Shown here: in pieces, positions 1 through 31,967 of the stretch
Layout: every line of letters starts with the position of its first letter
Numbering within the stretch: the stretch's first letter is position 1
Assembly (NCBI RefSeq): GCF_036373705.1
Contig: NC_089863.1
Span: 18,851,406 to 18,915,405, forward strand
Length of the DNA: 64,000 nucleotides
Direction of reading: 5' to 3'
From: Amia ocellicauda
Taxonomy: Eukaryota
Notes under the pieces: model-generated
Databases searched by the model: none
What the model saw: the letters and a program-made list of their open reading frames with translations, nothing else
What the model was told of the DNA's origin: nothing
Program-made: the position numbers and the translations under genes

Positions 1-44
1 TGATGTCTATTACAGCAAATATCACGGTTCTTTTAAATACTCAC

Positions 45-358
45 CAAACCACACCGAAAGCTCCATAGCCAATAGGACGGTCCGGTTCGACATCGGCCGG
101 GCTCGGAACCTCACTCCCGGGGTTACTGTGCTGCTGCGGAACCGCCGCTCCACCCCCGGTGCCTCCGCCGAGCGCGGGCAGGTGGCGAGGCGTCCCGGCC
201 GGGGCATTGGGCCCACTCGAGGACGGGGTCGCGCTGAGGCCTGTGGAAGCCCCCGCCGTCGAGGCGTTCGCCGGTATACAGAAGAATTTCGGGCCCAACT
301 CCGGGCCTCCGAACAAGTTGCCACAAACAGACTGGTGGCTTGTTCCGTGGAAAGCCAT
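45..358 (-). CDS. nlk: Nemo-like kinase, first coding exon (N-terminal low-complexity region up to the kinase Gly-loop); the CDS continues beyond the window start
   Basis: Minus-strand ORF from ATG 358-356 (aaaATGGct, Kozak-like). It ends ...SEVPSPADVEPDRPIGYGAFGVVW, which matches the NLK-specific motif EPDRPIGYGAFGVVW|SVTDP. A GTGAGT donor follows 'gtt tg', splitting the Trp codon. Confidence 0.7.
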
Positions 359-699
359 TTTAAAAAATAATATTGGAGACGGTCATTAAAAAAAGAAAAG
401 TTATTCAAAAAAATAAAATGTAAACAACGCGTCGTTCACGACACAATGTGAGGTAGCTTAAGCCAGCTTCCAGGGGAGACGTTACAAAACAGCAACCTCG
501 ATAAATTAAAACACAAAAATAAACTTAATAAAAACACAAAACAAACACCAATACCCTCAGATAATGAAACGCAAGACTCCCCGCTCTCTCTCTCTCTATG
601 ACGGCGACTATTCATAAATATGAAAACAAACCCCGACAATAACTTAAATCTTTAAAAAGAGCAACCAAAAAAAAATATTAAAAAATAAAAAAAATAAAG

Positions 700-1340
700 A
701 AGGTGTTTTTCATTTTCATCGGTAGGCGCTGTGGCCGTGCGGAGCCGCCGGACTCACGGCGACCTCAAATCGCTCCATTGTCTCCCGGCCGGAGACGGGG
801 CTGTGCGGCCGCCGAAAACGAGTTAAAAAAAAAAACCGAAAAAGACGAGGCGGCCCACGGCGACAGAAAGAAACGACACCCGAGCGGAGGTAGACTATCC
901 GGAGAGGGAAGGATGGAGGGAGACGAGGGAGAAAAGTGTCCGGGTCTCTCCGGGCTTTGTTAGAAGAACATACCGGGCTCAGGGAACTCAGACCACAGCC
1001 GGCTTTCCAGGCAGAGGAGGAAGCCGCCGTCCAGCACGCAGTTAGAAGCCATTATGATTATTTATTCATATTAAACTAAATATACTCCAATTAATCAGCG
1101 TACACCGAGCCCAAACCTGGGCAGCAGACCCCGGGCAGGATTTGTCAAGCAATGTCGTGGTTACACTACAAACCCCGTCCCCCGGAGGTCCATGATGAAG
1201 GTCGCCGAACCGTCCGCACAGATCCGCGGCCGGGGAGTGCGCTACACTGCCGCCGCCGAGCCCGTCCCCCCGTGTCCCGGGTAATCGATAAACCGGCTCC
1301 GGGAGTCGGCGATCGTTTCCGACATATAGGACCTGCCACT
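700..1340. promoter_or_regulatory. CpG-rich segment upstream of the nlk ATG (candidate nlk promoter / 5'UTR)
   Basis: High CpG density (ggccgtgcggagccgccggactcacggcgacc...). It lies 0.35-1 kb 5' of the nlk start on the minus strand. Confidence 0.3.
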
Positions 1341-2599
1341 GAGCCCCGCTGAGGAACAATGGTAGCTGGTGTGTTGTGAGTTGCACTGACAAATAAAGAT
1401 CACACGCACACACGCAGTCAGACGAGGTGCCGGTTATGCACAGTGTTAAAAAGCGCACCGATTAAAACTGAGGGATTGCCGGACTGCTCGGCTTCACATT
1501 CTTTCTGTTTTTCTTTCTCTCTAATCATGTGGCGTGCATTCTCTCTCTTTCTCTTTCTGATCAGCTGTTTGGGAGAGTGGGGGAGGGACGGGGGGGTGGC
1601 TAGAGAGCCAGAGAGAGTAGTGTAACGGAGCGGCCGACTTCAGAGGGAGGGGGGGAGGGGAAGGAAAGACAATAGGGGAGAGTGACGAGTGCTCTAACCG
1701 TGTTATAGCACAGGAAATACAGTCTGCTACTGTGCTCTGTGCCAGCTCGTCATGCCAATAAAGCTCGTTTTGAATTGCAGTGTGAAGGACGATGGAAGTA
1801 ACACACTACTGCCAATTGTAATCCAGCTCTAGCAGTTTATGGTGGGACAGACACGCACCCCTACCTGGAAGTGGGTTTGATTAGGACGTACCGGCTCGTC
1901 CCCCCGTGGTCATGCCCTCCTCCAGCTTGACTTCCACAGCCTTAATCAAATTGATCGGCCTCAAGTGACTGAAATTGGCCCGTGGCCCTCTGCAAGTCCT
2001 AGCATTGGGATTCTCCCATCCAGACAAATATGGCAACCAAGCAGAATCGAGCGGCACCATGGACTGAGACATTAATGTCCTAACCAACGTCAACTGCAAC
2101 AATCAGAGCTCTGCAACCCACAGGGCCGCACAGGGACTCTCCTCACCCACTGAAGAAGGACTTTGTAATATTAAGAGTTTGAAATTCAGTTTACCTGCAT
2201 GTCCCCCCCCCCCCACTTACCCATATGGAATTGTTTTAAAGCCATTGTGTTTTTATATACACACACACACACACACACACAAGAATACAGCATTCAAAGT
2301 GTGGATCACTGATTGAGCAGATGAACTGAAAGAGTTTGATGCATCTCAAAACAAACCCCAATTAAAATTAAGTGTCTCAGATGGGTTGGAGACCTTAATA
2401 GAATCAGACGGGTCCAAATGATTAAAAACGAGGTCAATATCTTCTCTCCCGCACCACCCGTAGCAATGAGACGCTGAAGCACAAAACAGACACAGCCACT
2501 GAAATCTGCTAGAAAACCAGCAGTGTAGCACCGTGGGATTGAGTTTATTTATTCATTTATGGACATTTCTGGATAAAAAGCCTGCTGTACAATGGTGGT

Positions 2600-3226: not shown

Positions 3227-3945
3227 GCTAGGCCGGCCTCTCTAGTGGCTCCTGGTACCACAGTACCCGGGCTGGATCTGTGGAGGAAGCAGAGATCAGA
3301 TCAACCCATTTTGTACCACAGACTCTTCTTGGGAAGCCAACACTAGAACAATGGAATAGAAACTTCACCCTCTTAGTGGTCCCTGGGAGCAACGCATATT
3401 TAGTTACTGTACATTAAAACAGTTGTGCATACTCAACTATACAATGTAACATACCGAAATTCAATAATTCCAGCAAAAGTAATAAGCTCATTATACAACA
3501 GTCGCTTGAAGTCGATTCGGGCTGTACTTCCTAAACAGAGTGATTACTGCAGACGCATGTGATCACATAGCACAGTGAACTCCGATTGGCTGAAGAGAGG
3601 GAAGTGAAAGGCATAGTGTCACCTGACCAGTCAGTGCGATTCTGCGTTTAGTTTTTGGGCGTTGCTAAATATCTAGGTTAGCTGGGGATGCGGTAAGCAT
3701 CGGCATTGTGTTGGTTTGGTTTTTAAGCCCTTACACACAATCTTAAACCGAGTTACTCTGATCTGTGGGGGGCGAGAAGGGCTGCGGGCTTCAGTTCAGA
3801 CGGTGTACTCACCTCTCCTGTGTGCAGTGCAGGCCCGCTCCCATTCTGAAACACAGAGCACACAGTCAGCACACAGCACCACACGACACACACAGCAACC
3901 TGCGCTTCAACTGTCGCACACAGACCAGCGGGGGACGGGACTCAC

Positions 3946-4798
3946 CGTAGCTGTGGTAGCGCAGGGCCTCCACCAGGTGGCGACAGCTCAGCAGCAGCTC
4001 CCCGGAGCTCTCGGCCCCCTTCCCCGCCTCCTCTGGCAGCCGGCCAACGGGCAGCAGGGGCTTGGCCGGGGCCAGCCTGTCAGAGTCCGGGGTGCGGGGG
4101 GCGGGGGGCGTGTCGGGGACTGCGACGCAGCCGAACTGGGGAAGGGTGGCAGCCGGGGAGGAGCGCAGGCTGGGGGGGGAGGAGGAGAAGGAGGAGGAAG
4201 AGGAGGACGGCGGAGAGGGGGAGGAGGAGGAGGAGGGCGGTTGGGGGGCAGGGGGGCCGTCGCTGATGAAGCTGAGCCCCCACTGGTTACGGAGCAGGGC
4301 CCCCAGACTGGCAGGCTCCCCCTGCCCGCCTCGTCCGGCCCCCTTCACCTTGGAGGCGTAGCTCACAGTAGGCTGCAGCTTGGCTGGACTGTCCTGAACG
4401 GGGAACGAGGGGGGGGGCTTTAGCAAGGTCCAGGTCCCCCCCACCGCTATCTCGCCCTCTCTCTTGGGGGTCCCAGGGGGCGGGGGGCTGGCAGGCTGCT
4501 GGGGGGGCCCTCTTCTCTGGTGTCTCTCCAGGCCTCTGTCCGCGGGCCGGCCCCTGTACACCCACCGCCTTTCCCGGGTGGAGGTGTGCGGGCCGGCGGG
4601 GTGTCTGTGGGGGTAGGTGGGGGGCGAGCCGTGTTGTTTCGAAGACCCCCTCTCAGCGCATCCCCCACCGCCGCCGCCCCCCACCGGGGAGAGCCGGCGA
4701 TTGCGGATGTGTGGGGTGGCGGCCGGGGCCAGGGGGCCACGGTCGGACAGGGGATCCAACTCCGGGGCCGGGTCACACACACTGGGCTCCCAGGCACC
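3946..4798 (-). CDS. Unassigned internal coding exon (Pro/Ser/Gly-rich, about 284 codons) of a minus-strand gene
   Basis: The minus ORF 3866-4780 is bounded by a ctctccctcag acceptor (about 4799) and a tac g|GTGAGT donor (3945-3940). It is low-complexity, and all six frames are open in this GC-rich segment, so coding status is uncertain. Confidence 0.3.
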
Positions 4799-7359
4799 TG
4801 AGGGAGAGGAGGGAGGGAGTTAAAACAGGGCAGACACCCACTGGACATGGCAACACACTGACTGTGTTTATATAGACACCCTGACTTACTGGCACTAACA
4901 GTACTGGACTCCCACAGCGTCAGCAGCCTCCTGCCTTGTCTGCAGCAAAGGGAGGCAGACAGCCGATTAACTCCCCCCCCATACAGCCATTTCACAACGA
5001 CCCCCCCCCACACACACACAACACTGAGCACCAAACAGAGCACCCCCTAACACAGTAGAAGACCGATTAAATCACTTTCAAGTCCTATAGGTCAGATCAG
5101 TGGGATACAAACCCAAATCCCCTCCAGCTCCACAACTCATTCGCTGGCCCATGTTTTCCAGGCTGTAGATTATACAGACTGACTGAAAGGGCTGAGCTGG
5201 AGAACCGAGTGGACTGGGGCTCCAGAACCAAGGCTGAATAATAAAAGGGGTTTGCAGTGAAATGCAAGCACAAGCACCTGGCATTTGGAGCCACCCTGAG
5301 CACAGGCACATTACTCAGACGCCAGTAGAAGTGAACTCCACACTATATTTGCCTACATAAATCACTTGTTGCTCTCTTTTTAAATTTCAAAGCCATTGTA
5401 TCCTCTTGCAGGAAGGTGGCAATGGGACTTTAAATGGAAGCATTCCCTTCCACCCACTACTGTTAGAGCTCCCCCACTGGGATACAGAACCAGTTCTTCA
5501 ATGTAGCCTGGACGAGTGGTACAGCCCCACCCAGTTTTATGCGCAGTTTTGTCCATTAATTGGCCACTTTAACTTCTTTAGGTGTGGGGGAAACAAAACT
5601 AAAAACTCCAGACCTTATTCAAGCCACCTCCAAAGATGAGATTTTCTTCCTCACACTAAGGCTGGTTACGTCATTTTAAACTGTGGGAAAGTGCAATGTA
5701 TTGTATGGGAGGAAAGGAAGAGTTAAACGCCAAATGTGTAAAAGGTGTTGCATATACTCCAGCAATTTCTATGCAGAAACTTTTGAAAATGTACCCTCCC
5801 GAGGAGCGCATCGGGCAGGACCCGCAGGTTTGTTCAATTGTTTCCACGTCAGCGTTTAACATTGCTATGGAGTAGGCCTTTCCACTTATAAATAAGTATA
5901 TTGAATCATTCCGGGTTCTCACATGATTTGTTTTAGAGGATTGGATATAATGGTGATCAATACTAGCACCAGTTATATGCAGTAGGCTAGCTGTAGCAGT
6001 GCTATTGTATTTTTAGCAAATCCATTTACAGCTCAATCAAAGATCCTTAAGAGCATCACTCACGGGCAGAAATGTGTATATGCGCAAGAATCTCAGATTG
6101 CATCTTCTACTCAAGCAGCCGCTTATTGTTTTTCCCCCTGCGTCACACGCACATGTAAAATGTAATAAACTGATCAAAGTAAATCTGTATGTGTCCTTGC
6201 TGTTGCTGTGCGATTGCACATAGAAAGCCCACACTGAATACCTCACCAGAAACCCCCACCTGGGATGTATGGGCCGTTTGATCTGAGGGCAGGGCTAAGT
6301 CAAAATGTAATGAGTTAACAGTCAGATACCAGGAAAAAATCCCATGTTAATTAGAAGCTAAAAGGCTTAATAAATTGCCAAACAATTAAGTATGTTGTAC
6401 CAAAGCAAAACATTCCTTTGACTGTTTAAAGTCATGTTAGTGTAATCTACTCATTATAATACATTATTGCTTGTGGTCCCTTTGCCCATTTAAACAGGAT
6501 ACCCAGCAAAATCCCAAAACCGATGTCATGTAGATGAAAGTGCACCTGGGGCTGCCCAGTACCCTGAGAAAAACAGCTTGACTCCTGGGGTGAAGTCTCA
6601 AGGGGCAAAGTTCTGCACTGTGGCGAAACTGACCAAGAAATATCAATGCACTCCTGCAAACCTCTGTCCCAATTGAGAGAGTATTCTGGACAATGCGTGT
6701 TAAAAAAGCAAAGCAAGTAAAATAACCTGCCATAACAGATTGAGTTACATTTATTTCCCTATGCGTTTACTCCACTTGGAATCGAGCAGCACTATTAATC
6801 AGTCACCTATTAGGGGGTCGTCCAGGTGGTTATCGTGCAGGACGGTATCTTTCGCAAGTCTGGGGGGGTGGGGGGCACAAACTGAGCTGACAAACTTACC
6901 ACGACTCGCCCTAAAAGCAAAAGAGATCGGGGATCGGATGGGCAGACTGCAGTTACACAAAAAACGAGAAAAACCCATTGACACCAACAAACAAACGACA
7001 CATCTCAGGACGTAATCGATACAAACCCTTGGCCCGATTTCGAAACCGTCCACACAGCGGTTTAAACGCGGAATGGCTTCCTGGGATGCAATTTATTTTT
7101 AATTCACAATGAATCAGAGGCGTGTCTGTTTTTCGGGCAGTGGCATCACATTTGCGGTCAGCCTACTTTACTGGATTACAACTTCAATGTGGAGAAGAGG
7201 ATTTGAACATCATCCATTATTACAAATGAGAATTACCCGATTGTTTCTAATTAGTTTAAAAGGCGCATTGCTCGTCAGTGGTTTTTAGTCTGTGCCACCA
7301 AAAACACTCCGAGTTGTTCATTAAAACAAACCCAATACAGGCACGACCACAACTGCAGT

Positions 7360-8650
7360 GCGCAGCAGGCCGGGGTTACCCGAGCCCGGGGTTAGTACAC
7401 TGACCTACATACTGGAGCGGCGATGCCCGTCTGCGCCGCCAGAGCCCCGCACACACCGCGCTGCGCAGACCTGCCGGCTCCGCCAATGGGAGAGCGGGAT
7501 TGTGCAGATCCACGCAGCGCTGCGCCACACAAACCACCACAAACACAAACCGCTTCCGCCTCTCGGCCAGAGCAGGAAAAAGAAACCGAAAAGTCCATCT
7601 TTACCGAGAAACGCGGCCCGCAATAATATTCGGGGTCGTGATCCAAAAACCAATCCTAGCTCCACCTCGAAGCAGGCCTCAAAATGGTGCCAAGACACAA
7701 CAGCCACCGCACCGCCGTCCACACAGCGTGTAACAGGACCCAGGCGGCCAGGCTGGGGGCGCCGGAGCGGCAGTAACACCGCAGCCGAGCACCCCGGCTC
7801 CACTCGCTTCCATTTTAAACCTCGCTAGAAAATGTCACTTCCCCGCCGCCTTTCGCTCCCCGGTCCCCCGGTGCGAAGTGCGGCCAAGCGGCGGCGCTTT
7901 TCCGCCCCGAGTGAAGTTCACCCCCGGCAGAGAGTTCCAGAAAAGTTAGGCGGCCGGGCTGGTTCCCACAGAGCCGGGCGGCCGCTGCCATCGGCGCCAC
8001 TTTATCAACACCTTTCATCCCGTTTTCATTCGGGCGTCCGCGACTCCAGAGCCGGCCTCTGGATTAAAACGGACCCGGGGCGAGGGGTCTGCGTCCCCGA
8101 TGCGCTGGCCAAGTTGAACGGCAAATAAACACACCCAGAGATTACACAACACTACACACCAGCGCCGGCAAGTTGGCCGACGCGTTAAATAAGTTCATGT
8201 CCTTTTATACGTTACATAAAACCCCCGCCACAGCAGCGCTCGCACCGACGACAGCCTCCACAAAAAGTTTCGTCACCTCTCCGCCTCAGACACACAAACA
8301 CACGACCCCGTCCCCGCCGGGCGCAACTCGCCTGGCCGACGGACGGACGGGGAAACAAACGGGCCCGGTAGCTACCTGCTTTAATGTGCATCTTGGCGGG
8401 TTTCTGTGGTCCGAGGTGGGAGGCCGGGAATTCCGTGTTGTTGCGGTTGGTGTGCGCGTCTCGGCGAGAGGAGCGGAGGAATAGGCCAGAGCGGTACGGG
8501 CAGCCGCGTTGGAATCGAGAGGGGAGGCAGCGCTCCGCCCGGTTATAGAAGCGGCAGGAGGGGCGGGAGGGAGCGGGCGAGGGCGGGGATTCGGGCCTCT
8601 TCCGCTACGATTACATAAACCCTGCTGAGGTATGCGAGTGCGGGGAGACG
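7360..8650. promoter_or_regulatory. CpG island (about 1.3 kb) with a CCAAT box (ccgccaatggg, 7467-7477); candidate promoter of an unidentified gene
   Basis: CpG-dense and GC-rich, with no convincing coding frame. ORFs 7358-7828 and 8173-8484 look like GC-driven artefacts. Confidence 0.35.
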
Positions 8651-13906: not shown

Positions 13907-14008
13907 CTGAGAGAGAGAGAGAGAGAGATTCAGAGTCTCAGAATGGCAGTATAACAGTGTGTCCATGTGTCAGCGTGTGGGGGCGTAACTGTGTCAGAGT
14001 GTCAGTAC

Positions 14009-14107
14009 CCTGCGTCTCGATGATGTTGTTGAGGTCCAGCTCGGCCACTTCCTGCGCTCTCTCCCTCCGCGCCCGTGCCTTCTTACACTTCTCAATGGAG
14101 GGGTTAT
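14009..14107 (-). CDS. hirip3: hirip3 exon 7
   Basis: (D)NPSIEKCKKARARRERAQEVAELDLNNIIETQ(G); ctatag acceptor and g|GTACTG donor. Confidence 0.85.
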
Positions 14108-14286
14108 CTATAGAGAGAGAGCGAGATCACTGAATTAACACACTGCAGTGTGGACACACACCAGTAAACACACGCGCAGTGCGGTACAGGACAGACACGC
14201 ACCAGAAAAGACAAGGGGAGAGAGAGGGAAGAACAAAATGAAAGAGCAAGGGTACAGCTCAGTACGGCACGGCTGCGCAGACTGAC

Positions 14287-14458
14287 CTTTGACCCCCAGC
14301 TCCTCCAGCGTCCTGCGCAGCACGCCGACCTTGGCCTTGACAGAGTGGCAGTCCTGCAGCAGCTGCTTGTAGTTCTTGCGCACGCCACAGAGGGCGATGT
14401 AGCGCTTCAGCCGCTGCACTGACTTGTGCTCCTCCTCTCGGCCCCCGGAGGACGACGT
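14287..14458 (-). CDS. hirip3: hirip3 exon 6 (conserved C-terminal domain)
   Basis: TSSSGGREEEHKSVQRLKRYIALCGVRKNYKQLLQDCHSVKAKVGVLRRTLEELGVK(G) matches human ...MRLKRYIRACGAHRNYKKLLGSC..ALGMKG. tgtag acceptor and g|GTCAGT donor. Confidence 0.85.
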
Positions 14459-14576
14459 CTACACACACACACGGCACGGGAGAGGGGTTACGGCACGGAC
14501 ACACACTGACTGACTGCACAGCAACACTACGACATGGGACCCGTTATAACAGCAATGGTACAATGAGCACACTCAC

Positions 14577-14743
14577 TTTCTTCCCCATCTTCCCTTCTTT
14601 CTCGGCGCTGCCCTTCTTTTTCGCACCCCCTCGCTGCGGGCCTGCCTTGCTCTCCTCCTCGTCCAGAGAAGGCAGGGAGGAGGAGTCGGAGTCTGATCCC
14701 TTCTGTTTCTTCTTCTCGTCCTCTTCCACACTTTCCTCCAACT
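14577..14743 (-). CDS. hirip3: hirip3 exon 5 (acidic/Ser-rich)
   Basis: (E)LEESVEEDEKKKQKGSDSDSSSLPSLDEEESKAGPQRGGAKKKGSAEKEGKMGKK; cag acceptor and aaa|GTGAGT donor. Confidence 0.75.
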
Positions 14744-14747
14744 CTGC

Positions 14748-14786
<39 letters not shown>

Positions 14787-14892
14787 AGAATGACCAGTCA
14801 GACACAGAGACAGGCTCTTATGATGTCCAGTCAGTCAGTGTGTCTGTACTAACCCCTGTATTAACCCCTGGAAGACACACTCTTTCACTCAC

Positions 14893-16245
14893 CATCTCCA
14901 TCGCTCTCCTCCTCTTTTCTCCCTCCTTTCTTCTTCTCTCCCTCTTTCATTCCATTCTGCCCTCCCTCTTCATCGCTCCCCGAGTCCCTCTGTTCTTCAT
15001 CTTCTTCGCTCTCTCTCTCGTGCGGTTTCGTTCCCATCTTCCTGGCTCTCCTCCCTCCCCCCTTTCCCTTGCTCTCGGTCTCTACATTTCCCTTCGTTGT
15101 CTTTTCCATCTGTTTCTCATCACTCTCTTCCTCGCTTTCTGACCCACTCTCTACCGCTACTGCCTTCTGTTTTACTCCCTTTGCCTTCCCTCTGCTATCC
15201 TGCTCTTCCTCGCTCTCAGACTCACTCTCTACCTCTATTGCCTTGTGTTTCGCTCCCTTCTTCATCTGAACTCTCTTCCCCTTCTCTTCCTCGCTCTCAG
15301 ACTCACTCTCTACCTCTATTGCCTTCTGTTTCGCTCCCTTCTTCATCTGTCCTCTCTTCCCCTTCTCTTCCTCGCTCTCCAGCTCACTCTCTACCTCTAT
15401 TGCCTTTTGTTTCGTTCCCTTCTTCATCTGTCCTCTCTTCCCCTTCTCTTCCTCGCTCTCCGGCTCACTCTCTACCTCTATTGCCTTTTGTTTCGCTCCC
15501 TTCTTCATCTGTCCTCTCTTCCCCTTCTCTTCCTCGCTCTCCGGCTCACTCTCTACCTCTATTGCCTTTTGTTTCGTTCCCTTCTTCATCTGTCCTCTCT
15601 TCCCCTTCTCTTCCTCGCTCTCCGGCTCACTCTCTACCTCTATTGCCTTTTGTTTCGTTCCCTTCTTCATCTGTCCTCTCTTCCCCTTCTCTTCCTCGCT
15701 CTCCGGCTCACTCTCTACCTCTATTGCCTTGTGTTTTGCTCCCTTTGCCTTCCCTCTGCTATCCTGCTCTTCCTCGCTCTCAGACTCACTCTCTACCTCT
15801 ATTGCCTTGTATTTTGCTCCTCTCTTCCCCTTCTCTTCCTCGCTCTCCGGCTCACTCTCTACCTCTATTGCCTTGTGTTTTGCTCCCTTCTTCATCTGTC
15901 CTCTCTTCCCCTTCTCTTCCTCGCTCTCCGGCTCACTCTCTACCTCTATTGCCTTGTTTTTTGCTCCCTTCTTCATCTGTCCTCTCTTCCCCTTCTCTTC
16001 CTCGCTCTCCGGCTCACTCTCTACCTCTATTGCCTTGTTTTTTGCTCCCTTCTTCATCTGTCCTCTCTTCCCCTTCTCTTCCTCGCTCTCCGGCTCACTC
16101 TCTACCTCTATTGCCTTGTTTTTTGCTCCCTTCTTCATCTGTCCTCTCTTCCCCTTCTCTTCCTCGCTCTCCGGCTCACTCTCTACCTCTATTGGCTTCT
16201 GTTGCTTCCCCCTCCCTGCACGCTCAATGCCAGAGTCCGGGGAAT
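14893..16245 (-). CDS. hirip3: hirip3 exon 4: a 1.35-kb exon containing about 13 near-identical 78-bp (26-aa) tandem coding repeats AIEVESEPESEEEKGKRGQMKKGAKNK
   Basis: Open minus frame throughout. ttctcag acceptor (16248-16246) and gat g|GTGAGT donor (14892). Exon phases are consistent with exons 3 and 5. Confidence 0.8.
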
Positions 16246-16724
16246 CTGAGAAGAGAACAAACAACCGACGAGCAAAATGATTAAGACAGATGTAAGTGCA
16301 AACAAAGAGAAAACTCCGGACGCAGATAGAGAGACCAGGAGAGACGCGCGGATATGGGGGGGATCACCGTCAAAAAGATGAATATGCCTAAAAAGAATGT
16401 GTACTTCTATTTGTGATTTGTACCTGCATTTACTAGAACAAATCTGAAAATTACGGGTACAAATCGCATTCTTGTGAGTTACAGCGTTAAATCACTGTCT
16501 AACACACGTCACAAAGGTCCCAGGCTGGGACTGTGGGCCAATCGATGAGGACGGGACTGTGCACGGCTCAGCTACGGAAACCCAGCGGTGTGACATGCGA
16601 ACGCTCGAGAGAAATGCCGATGCCCGTGCCGTTTTTGGTGCATTTTAATAAATCGACGCCATTCTGGCCAAACTGCCGATTCTATATGCTAATTGTAAAA
16701 CCAAAGTACAGACCGAACAGTCCA

Positions 16725-16990
16725 GTCTTCCAAAATATGCATAGCGAGTTTTTCAGATCAGCAGGGACACACGGACCCGGGGACACAAATGGAAATTGGG
16801 CTTCAAGGCATTCGAGACAGAAAACAGGAGACACTTCTTCACACAGAGAGGCGTCACAATCTGAACAAACTCCCCAGCGATGTGTTAGAAGCTGAAAGTT
16901 TGGGAACATTTAAAAATAGACGGGATAGGATCCTTGCATCACTTAGATATTAATGAACACCAGACGAGCACGATGGGTCGAATGGCCTCC
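16725..16990 (+). repeat. SINE-like interspersed repeat (about 260 bp), copy A, in hirip3 intron 3
   Basis: About 85% identical to 55420-55700 (+) and to the reverse complement of 19735-19965. The shared 3' end is ...aatggcctcctctcgtttgtaaactt. Confidence 0.6.
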
Positions 16991-18005
16991 TCTCGTTTGT
17001 AAACTTTCTTATGTTCTTATGTGGAAACCTTGCAAAGATGTTGTAGAAACTTTATGGTAAAAATAAAAATGATGGAATATTGTAAAAATAAATAAAAATA
17101 AACACAAACAAAATAGTTTTAAATTGGATGTATAAAGATTATAACACCATGACATTTAATAGTTGATGTAATAATCTTTATGCATCCAATTAAAAATGAT
17201 TGTTTGTGTAGGTTAGTTTACTTTCTATTGAATGATTCCATATTTTGTTATCTTAAAGTTTCTACAAAATATCTGCAAGATTTCCACTTGATAGACCGAC
17301 CAGAGTTTCAAAATTAGAAACCGGGACATATGGAATATTTATAAAATAATAATAACGAAATCACTTCAAATTATGGTATGTGTTTAAAAAGAGTGTTAAT
17401 TCCCAGATGTCTTATTTCTGCAGGGTGAATGTGCCCGTCATTTGTCAAATTCTTGGTTTCACGGGCAGCTGCACGTCTCTGGGCGCACAACTCAGCTCTC
17501 AGTGCCTCGTGTCTCCGCTGTCATCCAGAAAACCCTCTCTAGCAGCATCACCGGATTAAATGCAAGTACAAGTTATGAGGGTTTACCAATATCAGTAAAA
17601 CGTTCACTTCTTCGTGTGATCGATCACATAAATCACGCCGTGTCTATTCTAAAGGTTTGAAGAGTTTTAAGTGAGTCTGAACAAGGGAATGCTAAAAACC
17701 GGGACGTGTAAATGATTTTGAGAGAATTGTCGGGACACCGGGACATTTAATTCAAATCCAGGACGTATGGTCACCCTAAAAAGAGCCATTACTTCTCAAA
17801 AGACAGGGCGGAGGGTTTGGTTTGCGAGCCCTGCACATGCGTAGTCTTTACAATAGCATTAGCATTGTGACAAGACAGGCACTGACTTATTAAGAGAGAC
17901 GCAAAGCCGTCAATTTCGAGACACACAGACTGTCAGACACACGCAGACAGGTGCCAAGACAGACACTCTCAGAGACAACACACACACACACACACACAGA
18001 CCGAC

Positions 18006-18144
18006 CTGGATCAGAGGGAGCCCGTCGAGACTTCTTCCTGCACTCCTCCTCTCCCTCGCTCTCCCCTCTCTTGCGCTTGGGGGCGCGGGCGGAGGACGAG
18101 ACCAGTTTAATGAGCGGCTCGTCGTCATCGCTGCTGTCGCTGCC
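18006..18144 (-). CDS. hirip3: hirip3 exon 3
   Basis: GSDSSDDDEPLIKLVSSSARAPKRKRGESEGEEECRKKSRRAPSDP(g) matches human ..KRPPTPCSDPERKRFRFNSESESGSE; ctttcag acceptor. Confidence 0.8.
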
Positions 18145-18260
18145 CTGAAAGCGAGAGAGAGGCGCAGGGGTTGACACAGCACAGACACCGACTGCCTGGC
18201 GCTGCCACACACACTGTCGCTGCACTCCTTGTCCCCAGCGATGAAGACCCTCCCGCCCAC

Positions 18261-18381
18261 CTGCATGTTCAGCAGCTCCTCCTCCACGATTCGCTTCAGC
18301 AGCTGCCGCTCGTCTTTGCTCAGCGAGTCAGAGCCACAGTGGCACAGGTAGCGCTCCCGGATTATGGCCTGAGTGAGCTTG
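18261..18381 (-). CDS. hirip3: hirip3 exon 2
   Basis: (S)KLTQAIIRERYLCHCGSDSLSKDERQLLKRIVEEELLNMQ matches human LSTLTHSIVRRRYLAHSG..EEKQALKRLVEEELLKMQ; cccgcag acceptor and cag|GTGGGC donor. Confidence 0.85.
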
Positions 18382-19277
18382 CTGCGGGAACAATGACAAT
18401 CACAACAATCTCAACAACGCATGTGGAACTATTATATGAACTCTTATCATAAACACTGCTAGCAGGATCGGGATTCAAATGACTATTAGCAAATTATTAT
18501 TTTGAATCATAGTAGTAGCAGAAGTTAGTAGCAGTAGTGCAGATACTAGTGGTAGACGATTAGTAGTAGTAGTAGCAGTGCTATAGCAAGTACTTCAGTG
18601 GAATGGCGTCACTGAAACTACATTCTGAAACGGGCCTCCTGCGTGGAGAAAGCTGATCACAGAGGTGCTCTACCGAGGATAGAGAGACGCAGGGAACAAG
18701 CCGCCTATAGTCGCAATATAAGCTGCAGTCGCACAGCAGTAGTAAAATCCGTTCCAGTATCTTAGCGGAGTAGTAACCAACTAAAAACCCCTACTAAGAG
18801 CAGTAGTAGTAGCAGAAATGTCGCTCCGATATAAGTAGCAGGTTCCACAGTAGTAGTAGTAGTAGTAGTAGTAGTAAGGTAGTGTCAGGGTATATAGTAG
18901 TAGCAGTAACTATACCCCCAACAGAAGCACTACAAACAATCCAGGGACAACATGATTGTATTAGTGGCAGTGTATGCAGCCTGTTAGGAGCAGTAGTAGT
19001 AGTAGTAGAGTAGTGGCAGGAGAAGATGTAGCTGCAGATGCACGCAGAGCTGTAACAGCAGGCTGAGTAGCAGTATTAGCAGTGCATGCAAGGACCTACT
19101 ACTACTCATCACACACCTCCCCATCACAGGGTCGATGCGACATGCAACATACAAGACACGAGTCACTTTCTCCTCCTCAGGAAATACACAGTGCAGCAGC
19201 TACACGGACGCCCGGCCTCGCTGCGGGTGTAGGCTGGGCTGGAGGCGCTCATGGCGGTGTGCGGCTCGTCCTGCTAC

Positions 19278-19342
19278 CTGAGGTCCGGACTCCGCCGCAG
19301 CTCCCGGGACACGAAGCGCCGGATCCGGGTCTCCGCCGACAT
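19278..19342 (-). CDS. hirip3: hirip3 exon 1 (start codon)
   Basis: ATG 19342-19340: MSAETRIRRFVSRELRRSPDL(ag) matches human ..FTRSFFRGRPDLS; ag|GTAGCA donor. Confidence 0.75.
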
Positions 19343-21477: not shown

Positions 21478-21729
21478 TCAGTCCTTATACACAGTCTGCT
21501 GCCCGTGTCCTCTCTCGTCCGTCATGATGTGTCTGCGGACGTGGATCCGCCGCACCCGCCGGTCCCCGCCCCCGGCCCCGCCCCCTTCCTCCTCCGACTG
21601 CAGGCCGCCCGGCGACGAGCCGGCGCCCGAGTCCAGCATGGCCGAGGACACGCCCCCGGGGCCACGCCCGCTCTCGTAGATCAGGATGTTCAGGGTCTCC
21701 TCGAAGATACGAGCCTCCGGGAACTCCAC
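21478..21729 (-). CDS. kctd13: KCTD13 (BACURD1) exon 6, C-terminal, with stop
   Basis: VEFPEARIFEETLNILIYESGRGPGG...DRRVRRIHVRRHIMTDERGHGQQTVYKD* matches human KCTD13 ...RRVRRIHVRRHITHDERPHGQQIVFKD; ctctctcag acceptor. Confidence 0.9.
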   Translation of the reverse strand: MEFPEARIFEETLNILIYESGRGPGGVSSAMLDSGAGSSPGGLQSEEEGGGAGGGDRRVRRIHVRRHIMTDERGHGQQTVYKD

Positions 21730-21799
21730 CTGAGAGAGAGAGGGATTAATACGATACAAAAACACTGACCGACAGAGAGAGGGAGAGGCCGAGACTCAC

Positions 21800-21995
21800 C
21801 TTGGTCTGCTTCTTCTCGGTGGCGTAGACGATGGAGGTGCAGCACACCTCGGCAATCTTGCGCCCCTCCCCGTAGAAGGACCAGCAGCAGATCTCGTCCC
21901 CCAGGACGTCACGCGCGAACAGCACCCGCCCGTTGAAGCGCAGGCCCAGCTTGTCGAACAGCTCGATGTTCTTCAGCAGGTTGTCGTCCGAGTTA
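21800..21995 (-). CDS. kctd13: kctd13 exon 5
   Basis: [66 protein letters not shown]; aag|GTGAGT donor. Confidence 0.9.
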
Positions 21996-22128
21996 CTGAG
22001 AGAGAGAGAGAGGGTGGTGGGGGGTTAATATGGGATAGATGCAGTGACTGACTGATAGCTACGAAGCAGCGGGACAGAGAGGGACAGGGGGAAGGACCGG
22101 AGACACAGACGACACAGACGCACCGTAC

Positions 22129-22181
22129 CTGGTGTAGGAGTATTTGTTGTTGCCTCGGTTGTGTTGCAGCTTCACCACAGG
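22129..22181 (-). CDS. kctd13: kctd13 exon 4
   Basis: PVVKLQHNRGNNKYSYT(ag); ttttcag acceptor and ag|GTACGG donor. Confidence 0.85.
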
Positions 22182-22867
22182 CTGAAAAGCAGAACACACA
22201 CAAACCAGTCAATCACAGTGGCCTGCCCCCCCGTCTCCTCTTCTTGCTCGCTCAGACATTTTGTATGCTGCGAACTACTGTATCCCACAGCGTGTTATTG
22301 AAAAAAAGAAAAAAAGCTACCATCTTCTACAAGGCAAAGGCATAAAGCGACGGGATACAAGAGTTGTGTATTTATTTGTATTTTTTAATCAAATCGGCAC
22401 TGTTGTACACATTGGCTGCTTGAATACAACTGTTTATTTCTACCGGTGAAAGTGTCTGGATTGCTCTAAACGTGCTCATCTGCCCCGTCTCTTTCGCCGA
22501 CTCGAAGTCGACTCTCTGGCACCGGTTGATGACATCATGAATGTGGCGTTTCATTTTAAAAGCATGATATCATCTACAGGTATGTTCAGCCTGCATCTTG
22601 GTAGAGGACCATTAGATATTACAATTGGTCCCCCCCCCCAGTCCATGCTGAGCAGGTCACAATTGGCATCCATGTTGTTTGCAATGTTCATGGGGAGTCT
22701 CGCTAGCTGCGAGAGATACAGTCTGCCGTCCTCTACAGGCGTGTTCAGATTTGGTCTCCTTGGAGGAACAGGAAGTCCAGCTGGAAATTGTATCCCACCC
22801 ACCCACTGGGCTGGGCTGGGCTGGGCTGAGCAGAGGATCATGGGAAATGCTGCAGCCGGTCTCTCAC

Positions 22868-22957
22868 CTTCTTGCAGGAGGCAATCATCCTCTGCTCCTC
22901 CTTGGGCGAGGTGATCATGGGGATCCGGCAGACGGCCTCGTAGCCCTCCGCCCGCTT
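22868..22957 (-). CDS. kctd13: kctd13 exon 3
   Basis: KRAEGYEAVCRIPMITSPKEEQRMIASCKK; ctctgcag acceptor and aag|GTGAGA donor. Confidence 0.85.
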
Positions 22958-23142
22958 CTGCAGAGAGAGAGAGAGTTAGGCAGGATAGACACTGGCTGAC
23001 TGGACACTGCAGTACACTGATACTGCACTGAGACGGAAAGAGTGACAGAGGTGGGCAGGGGGAGAGTGTGGAAGTGTGCGTCTCAGAGTGTGTGTCATTG
23101 TGTGTAACAGCGATGTGCGTCTCAGTGTGTGTGTGTCTTTAC

Positions 23143-23312
23143 CTGCAGGGCAGTGAGGCAGTGAGACACTAGGCCCTGCAGCCTGTAGTATCGCGCCTCG
23201 CTCAGGATCTCCTCCAGCTCTCGGGGGCAGTCGGGAAGTGGCACCGCTCCGTCCCGCAGAAAGTTCAGAACCGAGCCGAAGTGCCGTCCGCTGCGGTCCA
23301 ACACCAGCCACC
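23143..23312 (-). CDS. kctd13: kctd13 exon 2 (BTB domain, second half)
   Basis: GWLVLDRSGRHFGSVLNFLRDGAVPLPDCPRELEEILSEARYYRLQGLVSHCLTALQ. The DRSGRHFG motif is KCTD13-type (KCTD10/TNFAIP1 have DRCGKHFG). Confidence 0.9.
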
Positions 23313-23409
23313 CTGAGAGGAAGAGAGAGGGGGACACGAGTCAGTCAGTCAGTCAGTCAGTCAGTCGGGGCGTCTCCGTACTCCTCAGCATTTCTCCTCC
23401 GCCTCTCAC

Positions 23410-23653
23410 CCTCCGAGTCGATGGTGACCTCGGTGTGTCCAGTGCACATGCTCCTCAGCAGGCTGTCGCTCTTGCTCAGGGTCTGGACGGTGGTGTAGTG
23501 CAGAGAGCCCCCCACGTTCAGCTTCACGTACTTGCTGCCCGCCAGGCCCGTCCCCTTCTCCTCCCGGCCCGGCCCGGCTGACGCCGGAAGCAGGTCTGAC
23601 GCCAACGCCGCCCCCCCGCCCTGGCCCGGGCAGCAGGAAGCCTCGGCCGACAT
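23410..23653 (-). CDS. kctd13: kctd13 exon 1 (start codon; BTB domain, first half)
   Basis: ATG 23653-23651: MSAEAS...GSKYVKLNVGGSLHYTTVQTLSKSDSLLRSMCTGHTEVTIDSE(g). Both the MSAEAS start and GGSLHYTT are KCTD13-specific. Confidence 0.9.
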
Positions 23654-27074: not shown

Positions 27075-27545
<471 letters not shown>

Positions 27546-27548
27546 TTA

Positions 27549-27719
<171 letters not shown>

Positions 27720-27966
27720 TCATCCAATCAGGGTGCAGCATGAAGGGCTCAAACTCAGGTTGGGACACTACAGTGATAATAATAGTAATAATAATAATAA
27801 TAATAATAATGATGATGAAAAGGGACAGATTAGTACCCACCTTCTAACTTGTGGTCATCTAAGAGCTCTTCATAAGCTACTGTGAAAGAGTGATAGAGAG
27901 AGTGAGAGGGGGAGAGAGAAAGAGAGAGAGAGAGAGGGGGGGGTTAATATAGTAAAGTAGAGGTTA

Positions 27967-28317
<351 letters not shown>

Positions 28318-28589
28318 TTATTACAGACAGAGGGGTCCCTGCAGAGATAAACAGAGAGAAAGAGAGAGAGAGTCAGAGAGATAAGATGGAGAGACCACGA
28401 CAGATCATATTTACACCCTACAAACCCTAATAGACAAACGTGCACAGCCAGAAAAGCTAAATCGTTGCCCATTTAATTGACATTAAAAAGGCATTTGATT
28501 CAGTTGGCATGAGGGTTTATATGATACAATTCTTCAAAGTGGTGTAGAAACAAAGATGCAGTAAAAAATGTGGCAACAAACAAACGACT

Positions 28590-29510
28590 GAAACGAGTTT
28601 TTCAGTCAGGGGTGTGGAGTGAAACACTGACTGTGTTTACATGCAGCTTAATATTCCATTAATAATCCGAATAAAGTCCATTCTGAATATAATTCCCTCA
28701 TATCAACACCTCATTCGGAATAGAATAACCCAAACGTAGACATTCTGACTGACATTTCATTCTGAATAAAGGACCTGGTATATACCTTTGATAAACCGTT
28801 CAATAGAAGAATATTAGCCATACAAATGCTTGTTCGCATTACATTATGAATTGCAATGAGTTAATGTTCAGTGCGCATGCTCCACTTGGTCTGCTCATTC
28901 GAAAACATGGTGGCGGCAGCGAACAGACAGAACTGGGCTAATGAAGAGACAATGTATTTAATAGAAATACTAAAGGACTTTTTCATTTTAAAGCGGCTTG
29001 ATAGGTGAAAAGTTCTTAACAACGAACTTCATGTCAGCGCTGTCTGAATAGTAGGATGAGAGCTTGCAATTGCTGCGTCTGTCTTAATCGCAAGGCTATA
29101 TGATTGATATGTAAACAGGTATCCACAATAAACCTCATGAATGTGCGATCATGTAAATAGCTGAATGAATGAACTGATTCCGAATGACCAAATATTGTGC
29201 ACGTAAATGTCATCACCTGACCGGGAATGATCTCAAGGAAAATTCCAGAAGAGCTTTCTATGCGGTGAGAAGAAGATGCTATAAAATGTACATTCCTGTC
29301 AAGTCATGGCTAAAACTAACTGACAGCCCATTGCTCTGTGTGGCAGTGAGGTATGGGGTCCACTCAGACTACAGTAAATGGGACAAAAATACCCAATTGA
29401 AAGCCTACATGCTGAACTCATACCAAATCATGCATATGCTCGCAGTACAGCATTGTGAGAGATTGACGGAGGACTTAACAAAAAAATACACTAGAAGAAT
29501 AACCTAGCAC
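28590..29510. mobile_element. Transposon remnant in sez6l2 intron 13: hairpin-like ttcggaata/ttctgaata repeats plus a MADF/Myb-SANT-like ORF fragment (MVAAANRQNWANEETMYLIEILKDFFILKRL, about 28895-28990, +)
   Basis: The W..EET..LIE motif is typical of MADF domains co-opted from PIF/Harbinger elements. An unrelated 107-aa ORF at 29184-29507 was also noted. No terminal inverted repeats were resolved. Confidence 0.3.
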
Positions 29511-30054
29511 ACCAAAGTAACAAAAGAAGTCAAAATGACCGGCATGGACCCCCAATCTGTCAATGCATTTATAGTCAGGCAACAGCCCCCTCCTATCAGA
29601 CCACTGCCACACAGTCCTGTACCTGAAAACCAAATTCAAACAAAACCATTCGAATCCGACCCCCCCCCCATGTCCAAATTGTATTATCACCTCAAACCCG
29701 CCTGTGAATGGACACAGAGAGAGCAGTGCTGAGGAGAACGGACTCACAGAAATGTCAGCACAGAAATAGAACGTCTGCTAATCAGCTTTCTAATTAAAAC
29801 ATAAATCAGACACAAATTCAATCAATTCGATCCATACAATAAATGAACTTAATATTCGCAGCAGCAGCGACAAAATCAAATCGTAAACAATCTATAAAAG
29901 AAAACAACTGAGACACAGAACGCAAAACAGCACAAAAGGAACTAAGAAAACTATCAAACCGGAAGCACCAAGAGCCTCCAAACAATTGACTCCAATAGGG
30001 GAATCCATAGAATAAAATTCCTTTTGGGAAAGATGGAACCAGCAAATTTGATTT

Positions 30055-30087
<33 letters not shown>

Positions 30088-30104
30088 CTCACTGCACAGT
30101 CTCA

Positions 30105-30371
<267 letters not shown>

Positions 30372-30379
30372 TCAGTTTA

Positions 30380-30754
<375 letters not shown>

Positions 30755-31117
30755 TTACAGTACAGTGATGTGTGCTGCTGTCAATAGAATATATATTTTT
30801 GCACTTTGTATTGCTCTTATGGCTAAGGGCATCTGCCAATAAATAAAAAATAATAATAATAATATATATGCTGTGGGGACTATAGTATAGTATATTTCAA
30901 TATAGGGCCCAGACTGGAGCCAGTGCTGTGTGTAAGGTAGTTGTGTTGTGTAATTCCTGTGCTGTTGTGTTGTCTGTGTGCTGTGTTGTTCAGTGTTGTG
31001 TTTCCCAGTGTTGTTTATTGCTGTATTATGCCATTCCCATGTTGTGTGTATGTAGGTCCTGTGCAGTGTACTGTAGTACAGTGTAGTGTAGTGCAATGCG
31101 GTGTAGATTGGTGTTAC

Positions 31118-31684: not shown

Positions 31685-31900
<216 letters not shown>

Positions 31901-31967
31901 TTATCAATGTTAATATACTATATTTTCCCTGCCCGTCTCTCTCTCCCTCCCTTTCTCTCTCTCTCAC

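What the first reader, a model, noticed from the sequence alone, without database searches (positions are those of the whole stretch)
45..358. An nlk first exon sits inside the 16p11.2-type paralogon (a retained ohnologue that is absent from human 16p11.2)
The exon ends with the NLK-diagnostic EPDRPIGYGAFGVVW immediately before a GTGAGT donor. Human NLK lies at 17q11.2 in the paralogon containing TNFAIP1, SEZ6, TAOK1 and ALDOC. Those are the paralogues of KCTD13, SEZ6L2, TAOK2 and ALDOA at 16p11.2, which has no NLK. An nlk copy linked to kctd13, sez6l2 and hirip3 here is consistent with the fish-retained nlk1 lineage. It directly documents that the pre-duplication ancestral block contained NLK next to the KCTD/SEZ6 genes.
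Basis: partly seen in the sequence, partly recalled or inferred. Interest (0 to 1): 0.6.

Follow-up and report, generated by a model that had tools for sequence, protein, structure and literature searches.

The report
Bowfin nlk1 first exon, already annotated

Summary
**Observation: confirmed.** On the minus strand, 358→45 is an open exon. It has an ATG in a good Kozak context (AAAATGG), 104 codons plus 2 bases, and ends ...EPDRPIGYGAFGVVW at a TG|GTGAGT donor.

**Identity.** Its 105 residues equal the first 105 residues of RefSeq XP_066577917.1, "nemo-like kinase, type 1 isoform X1 [Amia ocellicauda]". That 499-aa protein has a full kinase domain. The window is therefore bowfin, a holostean, not a teleost.

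**Neighbours in the window**
- kctd13: 100% identical to bowfin BACURD1.
- hirip3.
- A SEZ6-family gene and an ASPHD-type gene.
- A NUFIP2-like gene and a CaBP1-like gene.

**Lineage.** The MAF[HQ]G-type N-terminus and a tree (bootstrap 100) place the gene with fish "nlk type 1" and with tetrapod and shark "NLK2-like". It is separate from true NLK.

**Synteny elsewhere**
- Sterlet: kctd13 and nlk1 lie 19 kb apart.
- Turtle: the gene sits between ZG16 and C16orf54.
- Horn shark: kctd13 and the NLK2-like gene share a 1-Mb scaffold.

**Verdict.** The gene and its family name are already in RefSeq, and 16p11.2 is already described as rich in ohnologues. Interest is low.

The parts
45..358 (-). First coding exon of nlk type 1 (nlk1). 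ATG at 358-356; 104 codons plus 2 bases. It encodes the disordered N-terminal region and the start of the kinase glycine-rich loop (IGYGAFGVVW).
   Evidence: Translation. Identical to residues 1-105 of XP_066577917.1. Homologues at E = 3e-43 to 1e-27.
39..44 (-). Splice donor GTGAGT of intron 1 (phase 2, inside the Trp codon).
   Evidence: Sequence. The junction is conserved in teleost, sturgeon and turtle loci.
1..38 (-). First bases of nlk1 intron 1. The remaining exons lie beyond the left edge of the window.
   Evidence: the annotated protein continues with SVTDPRDGRRVALKK..., which is not encoded in the window.
359..1400 (.). CpG-rich stretch upstream of the ATG. It is the presumed 5'UTR and promoter CpG island of nlk1; this is inferred, and no transcript data were available.
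   Evidence: CpG observed/expected is 1.0-1.6 in 200-bp windows from 1 to 1400 (one window, 1001-1200, is 0.72), and falls to below 0.8 beyond that.
3231..8391 (-). Neighbour: a small NUFIP2-like gene (RefSeq 'uncharacterized protein LOC136767904', 316 aa). The main exon is at 3935-4801.
   Evidence: Pfam NUFIP2 E = 3e-13. 99% identical to XP_066578072.1.
14007..19342 (-). Neighbour: hirip3. It contains an 81-bp coding tandem repeat (13.6 copies) at 15124-16203.
   Evidence: 54% identity, E = 9e-44, to the N- and C-terminal parts of human HIRIP3. Weak CHZ hit, E = 0.1. Repeat; coordinates.
21478..23653 (-). Neighbour: kctd13 (BACURD1), six coding exons.
   Evidence: The assembled protein is 100% identical over 100% of its length to XP_066578055.1 of Amia ocellicauda. 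KCTD13 orthologues score above KCTD10 and TNFAIP1.
27234..34825 (-). Neighbour: a SEZ6-family gene with CUB and Sushi domains, a transmembrane segment and an NPLYEAG tail. It is called sez6l2 by position only. N-terminal exons may reach about 36 kb.
   Evidence: Pfam CUB E = 4e-15 and Sushi E = 2e-19. The best per-domain PDB match is a Sushi domain of Seizure 6-like protein (2yra). Coordinates.
41013..43528 (+). Neighbour: an ASPHD-type gene, called asphd1 by position only.
   Evidence: Pfam Asp_Arg_Hydrox E = 3.7e-28. Coordinates.
54250..55089 (+). Neighbour: a CaBP1-like EF-hand gene.
   Evidence: Pfam EF-hand families. PDB CABP1 E = 6.5e-64, against CaBP4 at 1e-46 and calmodulin at 1e-36.

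Best explanation
Positions 358-45 (minus strand) are the first coding exon of the bowfin (Amia ocellicauda) gene nlk type 1, also called nlk1; Xenopus and RefSeq call members of this lineage 'NLK2'.

**What the exon does**
- It supplies the start codon and a roughly 90-residue low-complexity N-terminal region.
- It encodes the first strand and glycine-rich loop of the kinase domain (IGYGAFGVVW).
- It is then spliced at a conserved phase-2 donor to the remaining exons, which lie left of the window.
- Together they encode a complete proline-directed, MAPK-like Ser/Thr kinase of 499 aa.

**Where the gene comes from**
- It is the second vertebrate NLK paralogue.
- It is kept in cartilaginous fishes, ray-finned fishes, amphibians and some reptiles.
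- It is missing from the human gene set.
- It sits in the block orthologous to human 16p11.2. True NLK sits in the paralogous 17q11.2 block.
- It is therefore most likely an ohnologue pair from the early vertebrate genome duplications, with the 16p11.2-side copy lost on the way to mammals.

**Shown:** the exon, its identity, the lineage, and the linkage in four species.
**Inferred:** the whole-genome-duplication origin, the promoter, and the time and place of the loss.
For: **Exon and identity**
- Exon anatomy.
- Residues 1-105 of XP_066577917.1 ('nemo-like kinase, type 1 isoform X1 [Amia ocellicauda]', 499 aa) equal the exon translation. The rest of that protein is a complete NLK kinase, including SRHMTQEVVTQYYRAPE.
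- In teleost loci the same exon is followed by all the NLK exons.
- The junction is conserved in teleosts, sturgeons and a turtle.

**Lineage**
- The best hits are named nlk type 1. Next come 'NLK2/NLK2-like' proteins of amphibians, turtles, a snake and a shark, at up to 100% query coverage (about 85-100%). True NLK covers about 81% of the query (74-83% across the listed hits), that is the kinase part only.
- N-terminal motif census.
- Neighbour-joining tree: the clade {type 1 + NLK2-like} has bootstrap 100.

**Synteny in the window**
- kctd13 is 100% identical to bowfin BACURD1.
- hirip3.
- SEZ6-family and ASPHD-type genes.

**Synteny elsewhere**
- Sterlet: kctd13 at 6,600,060-6,607,882 and nlk1 at 6,626,828-6,644,249, on the same strand.
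- Turtle: ZG16 | NLK2-like | C16orf54-like.
- Horn shark: KCTD13 XP_067882680 and NLK2-like XP_067882687-90 on one 1.03-Mb scaffold.
- Gambusia: a gene with a CDP-OH_P_transf domain (cdipt-like), then nlk1, then a TLC-domain gene.
- Carp: tlcd3b-like and nlk1 carry adjacent locus tags.
- Human: NLK lies with TNFAIP1 at 17q11.2 (PMC5919379).
- Zebrafish: kctd13, sez6l2 and asphd1 cluster on chromosome 3 (PMC3484866).
Against: - The window holds only exon 1. The other bowfin exons were seen only through the RefSeq protein, not as DNA.
- No transcript evidence was available.
- The tree is a neighbour-joining tree on a very conserved kinase. It does not date the duplication: lamprey and hagfish NLK fall with true NLK, with no usable support.
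- Orthology of the SEZ6 and ASPHD neighbours was not tested by phylogeny.
- The hirip3 call rests on a human sequence recalled from memory plus a sub-threshold CHZ hit.
- Absence from mammals and birds rests on general knowledge of the human gene set. It was not tested by a search here.
Confidence: 0.93

Rival explanations
1. The two NLK genes are not whole-genome-duplication products. A small-scale duplication or a transposition put a second NLK copy into the 16p11.2-type block in an early jawed vertebrate.
For: The tree cannot date the split relative to the genome duplications, and the cyclostome sequences are not informative. Only one copy was checked per cyclostome.
Against: - Both blocks carry matching members of several other families. 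These are BACURD (kctd13 here; TNFAIP1 beside NLK in human), the SEZ6 family and a NUFIP2-like gene.
- 16p11.2 is already described as dense in ohnologues (PMC6429492).
- The linkage is present from shark to turtle.
Confidence: 0.06
2. The exon is an isolated remnant, a pseudo-exon of a dead nlk copy.
For: Only exon 1 lies in the window. No RNA data were available.
Against: - The ORF, the Kozak context and the donor are all intact.
- RefSeq models a full 499-aa kinase starting with exactly this exon.
- The peptide is 57-79% identical to orthologues from bichir to teleosts, with changes concentrated at third codon positions in the conserved tail.
Confidence: 0.01
3. The exon belongs to the direct orthologue of human NLK, and the neighbours are 17q11.2-type genes (tnfaip1, sez6).
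For: A NUFIP2-family hit lies next to it. NUFIP2 itself is a 17q11.2 gene in human (from memory).
Against: - The N-terminus is MAFHG-type without His tracts, unlike every true NLK.
- Names and tree agree on type 1.
- The BTB gene is KCTD13, not TNFAIP1.
- hirip3, a gene with no paralogue in human (from memory), is present.
- The NUFIP2-like gene is a separate small-protein family, not NUFIP2 itself.
Confidence: 0.005

Closest known systems
Fish 'nemo-like kinase, type 1' (zebrafish nlk1 nomenclature; RefSeq name in Esox, Silurus, Hippocampus, Polyodon and Amia)
   Same: - Same exon 1 architecture: the motifs MAFHG..CGxLF..K(Y/F)FC..SEVPSPA(D/E)xEPDRPIGYGAFGVVW.
- Same donor position.
- 70-79% identity over exon 1.
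- The bowfin gene itself carries this name.
   Different: Nothing of substance. Bowfin has a single copy in a genome without the teleost duplication. The immediate neighbours differ from Gambusia (cdipt-like and a TLC-domain gene there; the NUFIP2-like gene and hirip3 here).
Tetrapod and shark 'NLK2 / NLK2-like' (named after Xenopus NLK2)
   Same: - Same clade, bootstrap 100.
- Same kind of start (MAFQG/MAFPG..LC..KFYC) and the same junction.
- Located in the 16p11.2-type block in turtle and shark.
   Different: The middle of the N-terminal region is not alignable with the fish version. The SEVPSPA motif is specific to ray-finned fishes.
Human NLK (17q11.2)
   Same: - About 83% identity over the kinase and C-terminal domains.
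- The same EPDRPIGYGAFGVVW motif at the end of exon 1.
   Different: - True NLK has a long His/Gln/Ala-rich N-terminus starting MALCG/MSLCG.
- It forms a separate clade.
- It lies beside TNFAIP1 rather than KCTD13.

Membership tests
Nemo-like kinase (NLK) family | A glycine-rich loop motif, PDRPIGYGAFGVVW, at the start of the kinase domain. | tested here: met
   Encoded at window positions 86-45, ending at the donor. The motif is present in most of the NLK hits.
Nemo-like kinase (NLK) family | A complete MAPK-like kinase domain with a T-Q-E activation-loop motif and the conserved NLK C-terminal domain. | tested here: met
   Not in the window. It is present in the annotated bowfin protein whose first 105 residues equal this exon (SRHMTQEVVTQYYRAPE ... 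CINPQSAAFKTFI).
nlk type 1 / NLK2 lineage (as opposed to true NLK) | An N-terminus that starts MAF[HQ]G or MAFPG and lacks His/Gln tracts. | tested here: met
   The window exon has MAFHGTSHQSVCGNLF. In the census of 120 hits, vertebrate proteins that start this way all carry type 1 or NLK2/NLK2-like names, and true NLKs carry 16-40 His residues. A related internal MAFQG motif occurs in invertebrate NLKs.
nlk type 1 / NLK2 lineage (as opposed to true NLK) | Groups with type 1 / NLK2 sequences in a phylogeny of the kinase region. | tested here: met
   Tested on the orthologues, because the window lacks the kinase exons. The clade of 15 type 1 and NLK2-like sequences has bootstrap 100 of 200 replicates. 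The bowfin protein lies in the same 90%-identity cluster as cyprinid type 1 proteins.
16p11.2-type paralogous block | A KCTD13 orthologue, not TNFAIP1 or KCTD10, in linkage. | tested here: met
   The window gene is 100% identical to bowfin BACURD1. KCTD13 orthologues down to mammals score 1e-224 to 1e-123. BACURD3 and BACURD2 start only at 1e-122.
16p11.2-type paralogous block | HIRIP3, a gene with no paralogue in human (from memory), in linkage. | tested here: met
The Pfam CHZ hit is only E = 0.1, so the call rests on the alignment.
16p11.2-type paralogous block | SEZ6L2 and ASPHD1 orthologues, as opposed to SEZ6/SEZ6L and ASPHD2. | tested here: inconclusive
   Family level only: CUB and Sushi domains, Seizure 6-like Sushi domain 2yra, and Asp_Arg_Hydrox. 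The arrangement matches the zebrafish kctd13-sez6l2-asphd1 cluster. No paralogue-level test was possible.
16p11.2-type paralogous block | The same linkage in independent lineages. | tested here: met
   - Sterlet: kctd13 and nlk1 19 kb apart.
- Turtle: ZG16 | NLK2-like | C16orf54-like.
- Horn shark: same 1.03-Mb scaffold.
Ohnologue pair (product of the early vertebrate genome duplications) | The duplication node dates to the vertebrate stem, between invertebrate chordates and jawed vertebrates. | tested here: inconclusive
   Both clades contain sharks and bony vertebrates, and amphioxus is outside. The cyclostome placement has no usable support.
Ohnologue pair (product of the early vertebrate genome duplications) | The two copies lie in blocks that share several other paralogous families. 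| tested here: met
   KCTD13 is here and TNFAIP1 is beside NLK in human. A SEZ6 family member and a NUFIP2-like gene are here. The 17q11.2 positions of SEZ6, NUFIP2 and TAOK1 are from memory.

The most novel reading that the evidence does not exclude
The bowfin block may keep three genes, side by side, that mammals lack on the 16p11.2 side.
- nlk1.
- An unnamed NUFIP2-like small-protein gene (LOC136767904; the zebrafish-type name is si:ch211-214j24.10).
- A CaBP1-like gene.

Their closest human relatives sit in the sister blocks: NLK and NUFIP2 at 17q11.2, and CABP1 at 12q24. If all three are ohnologues, the bowfin segment is a near-ancestral snapshot of the proto-block. The NUFIP2-like family would then be an undescribed, fish-retained sister of NUFIP2.
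Probability: 0.35. Interest if true: 0.3.

Novelty: already known. Interest (0 to 1): 0.15.

Why it matters
It matters little beyond bookkeeping. The gene is in RefSeq under the right name, the two-NLK situation in non-mammalian vertebrates is reflected in existing nomenclature, and 16p11.2 is already described as dense in ohnologues.

Three modest points are useful.
- A genome without the teleost duplication (bowfin) shows nlk1 about 21 kb from kctd13.
- Turtle data place the paralogue that human lacks between ZG16 and C16orf54. That says where in the human autism-associated 16p11.2 interval an NLK gene once lay.
- Functional NLK work in Xenopus and zebrafish may have used the paralogue that mammals lack (from memory, not checked here). 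This is worth remembering when transferring results to human NLK.

Tried and rejected
- **Bowfin DNA left of the window.** I tried to fetch it through the look-up of encoding contigs. The bowfin KCTD13 and nlk1 proteins are not on record. The same was true of bichir NLK, horn-shark NLK2-like and turtle KCTD13.
- **cdipt next to nlk1.** I looked for the Gambusia upstream neighbour (a CDP-OH_P_transf, cdipt-like gene) in the window by translating the Gambusia flank. Only exon 1 matched, so the gene order differs between bowfin and Gambusia.
- **Sterlet interval.** I looked for hirip3 or the NUFIP2-like gene in the 19 kb between kctd13 and nlk1. None was found.
- **CHZ domain.** The Pfam hit on the spliced hirip3 C-terminus is below threshold (E = 0.1).
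- **SEZ6 paralogue.** The PDB search could not tell SEZ6L2 from SEZ6 or SEZ6L, because only one SEZ6L domain has been solved.
- **Literature.** I searched for an evolutionary treatment of nlk1/nlk2 or of a 16p11.2/17q11.2 paralogon. Nothing specific is in the held library.
- **17q11.2-type reading.** I considered it after the NUFIP2 Pfam hit and rejected it. The gene is a separate small-protein family, and the BTB gene is KCTD13.
- **Incomplete scan.** ORFs on the plus strand of 1-36 kb and the minus strand of 51-64 kb were only read by eye, not scanned against Pfam. Small genes there could have been missed.

Full report
**1. The observation**

The feature is on the minus strand. Reading 358→45 gives an ATG in the context TTTAAAATGG, with an in-frame stop just upstream. 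The open frame then runs MAFHGTSHQSVCGNLFGGPELGPKFFCIPANASTAGASTGLSATPSSSGPNAPAGTPRHLPALGGGTGGGAAVPQQHSNPGSEVPSPADVEPDRPIGYGAFGVVW. The Trp codon is split TG|G by a GTGAGT donor at 44-39. The stated coordinates, 45-358, are exact. The window ends 38 bases into the intron, so no further nlk exon can be seen in it. The 1.4 kb upstream of the ATG has a CpG observed/expected ratio of about 1.0 or more in all but one 200-bp window, and the ratio falls beyond it. This fits a CpG-island promoter, but that is an inference.

**2. What it is**

- The 105-aa peptide alone finds homologues at E = 3e-43 to 1e-27. They include 'NLK kinase, partial' of the bichir and a kinase of Gambusia.
- In a teleost contig and in the Gambusia contig, the same exon is followed by every NLK kinase exon and C-terminal exon.
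- I assembled the neighbouring BTB gene from six window exons. It came back 100% identical over its full 334 aa to 'BACURD1 [Amia ocellicauda]'. The window is therefore bowfin, a holostean that did not undergo the teleost genome duplication.
- A cluster look-up then produced XP_066577917.1, 'nemo-like kinase, type 1 isoform X1 [Amia ocellicauda]'. It has 499 aa and lies on the same 36.2-Mb chromosome as KCTD13.
- Its first 105 residues are identical to the window exon. The rest is a complete NLK kinase.

The exon is therefore part of an intact, already annotated gene.

**3. Which NLK**

- I searched with a query made of the window exon plus the Gambusia downstream exons. It hit 'nemo-like kinase, type 1' of teleosts and sturgeons first (E about 1e-293 to 1e-275, full coverage).
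- Next came 'NLK2/NLK2-like' of salamander, caecilian, frogs, turtles, a snake and the horn shark, at up to 100% query coverage (about 85-100%).
- Only after these came true NLK, which covers about 81% of the query, that is the kinase part.
- Among the vertebrate hits, proteins that start MAF[HQ]G or MAFPG without His tracts all carry type 1 or NLK2/NLK2-like names. True NLKs start MALCG...MMAAYNGG and carry 16-40 histidines.
- A neighbour-joining tree of the kinase and C-terminal region gives the clade {fish type 1 + tetrapod and shark NLK2-like} bootstrap 100.
- The TG|GTRAG junction after GVVW is shared by the window, two teleosts, two sturgeons and a turtle.

That lineage is jawed-vertebrate-wide, not fish-only.

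**4. The neighbourhood in the window** (Pfam on six-frame ORFs; coordinates)

From left to right:

| Gene | Coordinates (strand) | Main evidence |
|---|---|---|
| nlk1 exon 1 | 45-358 (-) | sections 1-3 |
| NUFIP2-like small gene | 3231-8391 (-) | |
| hirip3 | about 14.0-19.3 kb (-) | 54% identity, E = 9e-44, to human HIRIP3 segments recalled from memory; CHZ hit only E = 0.1 |
| kctd13 | 21478-23653 (-) | |
| SEZ6-family CUB/Sushi gene | about 27.2-34.8 kb (-) | |
| Tc1 transposon remnants | 38.4-39 kb (+), 44.5-51 kb (-) | |
| ASPHD-type gene | 41.0-43.5 kb (+) | |
| CaBP1-like EF-hand gene | 54.25-55.09 kb (+) | |
| LINE fragment | 61.8-63.0 kb (+) | |

- The kctd13, SEZ6-family and ASPHD-type trio matches the zebrafish chromosome 3 cluster kctd13-sez6l2-asphd1 (PMC3484866).
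- KCTD13 orthology is firm. All KCTD13 orthologues, down to mammals, score above KCTD10 and TNFAIP1.
- The SEZ6L2 and ASPHD1 assignments rest on position only.

**5. Is the linkage old?**

- Sterlet: kctd13 (6,600,060-6,607,882) and nlk1 (6,626,828-6,644,249) lie 19 kb apart on the same strand. This is the same relative orientation as in bowfin.
- Turtle (Mauremys mutica): the NLK2-like gene lies between a Jacalin-domain gene and a small gene. The Jacalin gene is ZG16 (E = 1.5e-67 to human ZG16, against 3e-18 for ZG16B). The small gene is named 'transmembrane protein C16orf54-like'. ZG16 and C16orf54 are adjacent genes of human 16p11.2 (my knowledge; C16orf54 is listed in the 16p11.2 core in PMC3484866).
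- Horn shark: KCTD13 (XP_067882680) and NLK2-like (XP_067882687-90) share a 1.03-Mb scaffold.
- Gambusia: nlk1 lies between a CDP-OH_P_transf (cdipt-like) gene and a TLC-domain gene.
- Carp: a tlcd3b-like gene and nlk1 carry adjacent locus tags.
- Human: NLK lies with TMEM97, TNFAIP1 and POLDIP2 at 17q11.2 (PMC5919379).
- 16p11.2 is already described as holding 24 ohnologues in 1.5 Mb (PMC6429492).

**6. Interpretation**

Two NLK genes sit in two paralogous blocks, each next to a BACURD gene and a SEZ6-family gene. The proto-block therefore carried NLK, and the 16p11.2-side copy is missing from the human gene set.
- This is an inference from present-day linkage.
- My tree does not date the split, and cyclostome placement is unsupported.
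- A small-scale duplication into the block in an early jawed vertebrate therefore remains possible but unlikely.

**7. Novelty and score**

- The gene is annotated, the lineage is named, and the paralogy of these blocks is standard knowledge.
- What is added here: the species, the correction that the lineage extends to tetrapods and sharks, and the turtle position between ZG16 and C16orf54.
- Side observations: the unnamed NUFIP2-like family next to nlk1, a CaBP1-like gene in the block, and a 27-aa acidic repeat expansion in hirip3. These are mildly interesting leads.
- Overall interest is low (0.15).

Noticed in passing
window 3231-8391 (-), main exon 3935-4801: A small gene with a NUFIP2 motif lies about 2.9 kb upstream of the nlk1 ATG.
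- Motifs: TWTLLKPPPSFPV..KLQPTVSYASKVK and NQWGLSFISD. Pfam NUFIP2 E = 3e-13.
- It is RefSeq 'uncharacterized protein LOC136767904' (316 aa).
- Among the hits whose source was looked up, relatives are unnamed or misnamed ray-finned-fish proteins of about 260-440 aa (one carries the zebrafish-type name si:ch211-214j24.10); the frog hit checked is true NUFIP2.
- In paddlefish its accession number is two away from nlk1, on the same scaffold.
- True NUFIP2 lies at human 17q11.2 (from memory), so this may be another ohnologue that mammals lack.
   Followed up: partly
window 15124-16203 (-), inside ORF 14885-16264: An 81-bp tandem repeat (13.6 copies, 89% matches) lies within the hirip3 coding exon. 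It encodes a 27-aa acidic unit, AIEVESEPESEEEKGKRGQMKKGAKNK. It looks like a large in-frame expansion of the acidic region of this histone-chaperone-related protein.
   Followed up: partly
window 54250-55089 (+): A CaBP1-like EF-hand gene lies in the block (PDB CABP1 E = 6.5e-64, CaBP4 1e-46, calmodulin 1e-36). Human CABP1 is at 12q24.31 (from memory), in the third sister block with KCTD10 and TAOK3.
   Followed up: partly
L006 (Mauremys mutica CM035636.1, 158.87-158.90 Mb): In the turtle the NLK2-like gene lies between ZG16 and a C16orf54-like gene. These are adjacent genes in human 16p11.2 (from memory). This marks where the NLK paralogue missing from human lay in an amniote.
   Followed up: yes
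window 11592-12370: A satellite-like tandem array with 45-110 bp periods (unit CTATACTATACTATAC...CAGTCCACACAGTACTGGCTCCAGTCTGGCCC). Similar 'YYTILYYT' ORFs recur at 52.4-53.3 kb.
   Followed up: no
window 8800-11500: A strongly strand-biased stretch, purine-rich on the minus strand (GC skew on the plus strand down to -0.43). It gives long Glu/Gly/Arg-rich ORFs, one of 626 aa, with no Pfam hit. It is probably low-complexity DNA inside the intron of the NUFIP2-like gene or between genes.
   Followed up: no
window 38364-39000 (+), 44500-51000 (-), 61778-63022 (+); also 16.7-17.0 kb and 19.7-20.0 kb: Transposon remnants.
- Tc1/mariner transposase fragments (HTH_Tnp_Tc3_2, DDE_3).
- A LINE fragment with a reverse-transcriptase zinc-binding domain.
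- A short repeat ('TRGHKWKL..RRHFFTQR') that is also found around the sturgeon nlk1 gene.
   Followed up: no
cluster of P0139: The 90%-identity cluster of cyprinid nlk1 also contains TLCD3B/FAM57B proteins. The likely reason is that fused nlk1-tlcd3b gene models (for example the 739-aa 'NLK2' of Collichthys) bridge the two. This is a database artefact, and it incidentally shows that the two genes are adjacent in teleosts.
   Followed up: no
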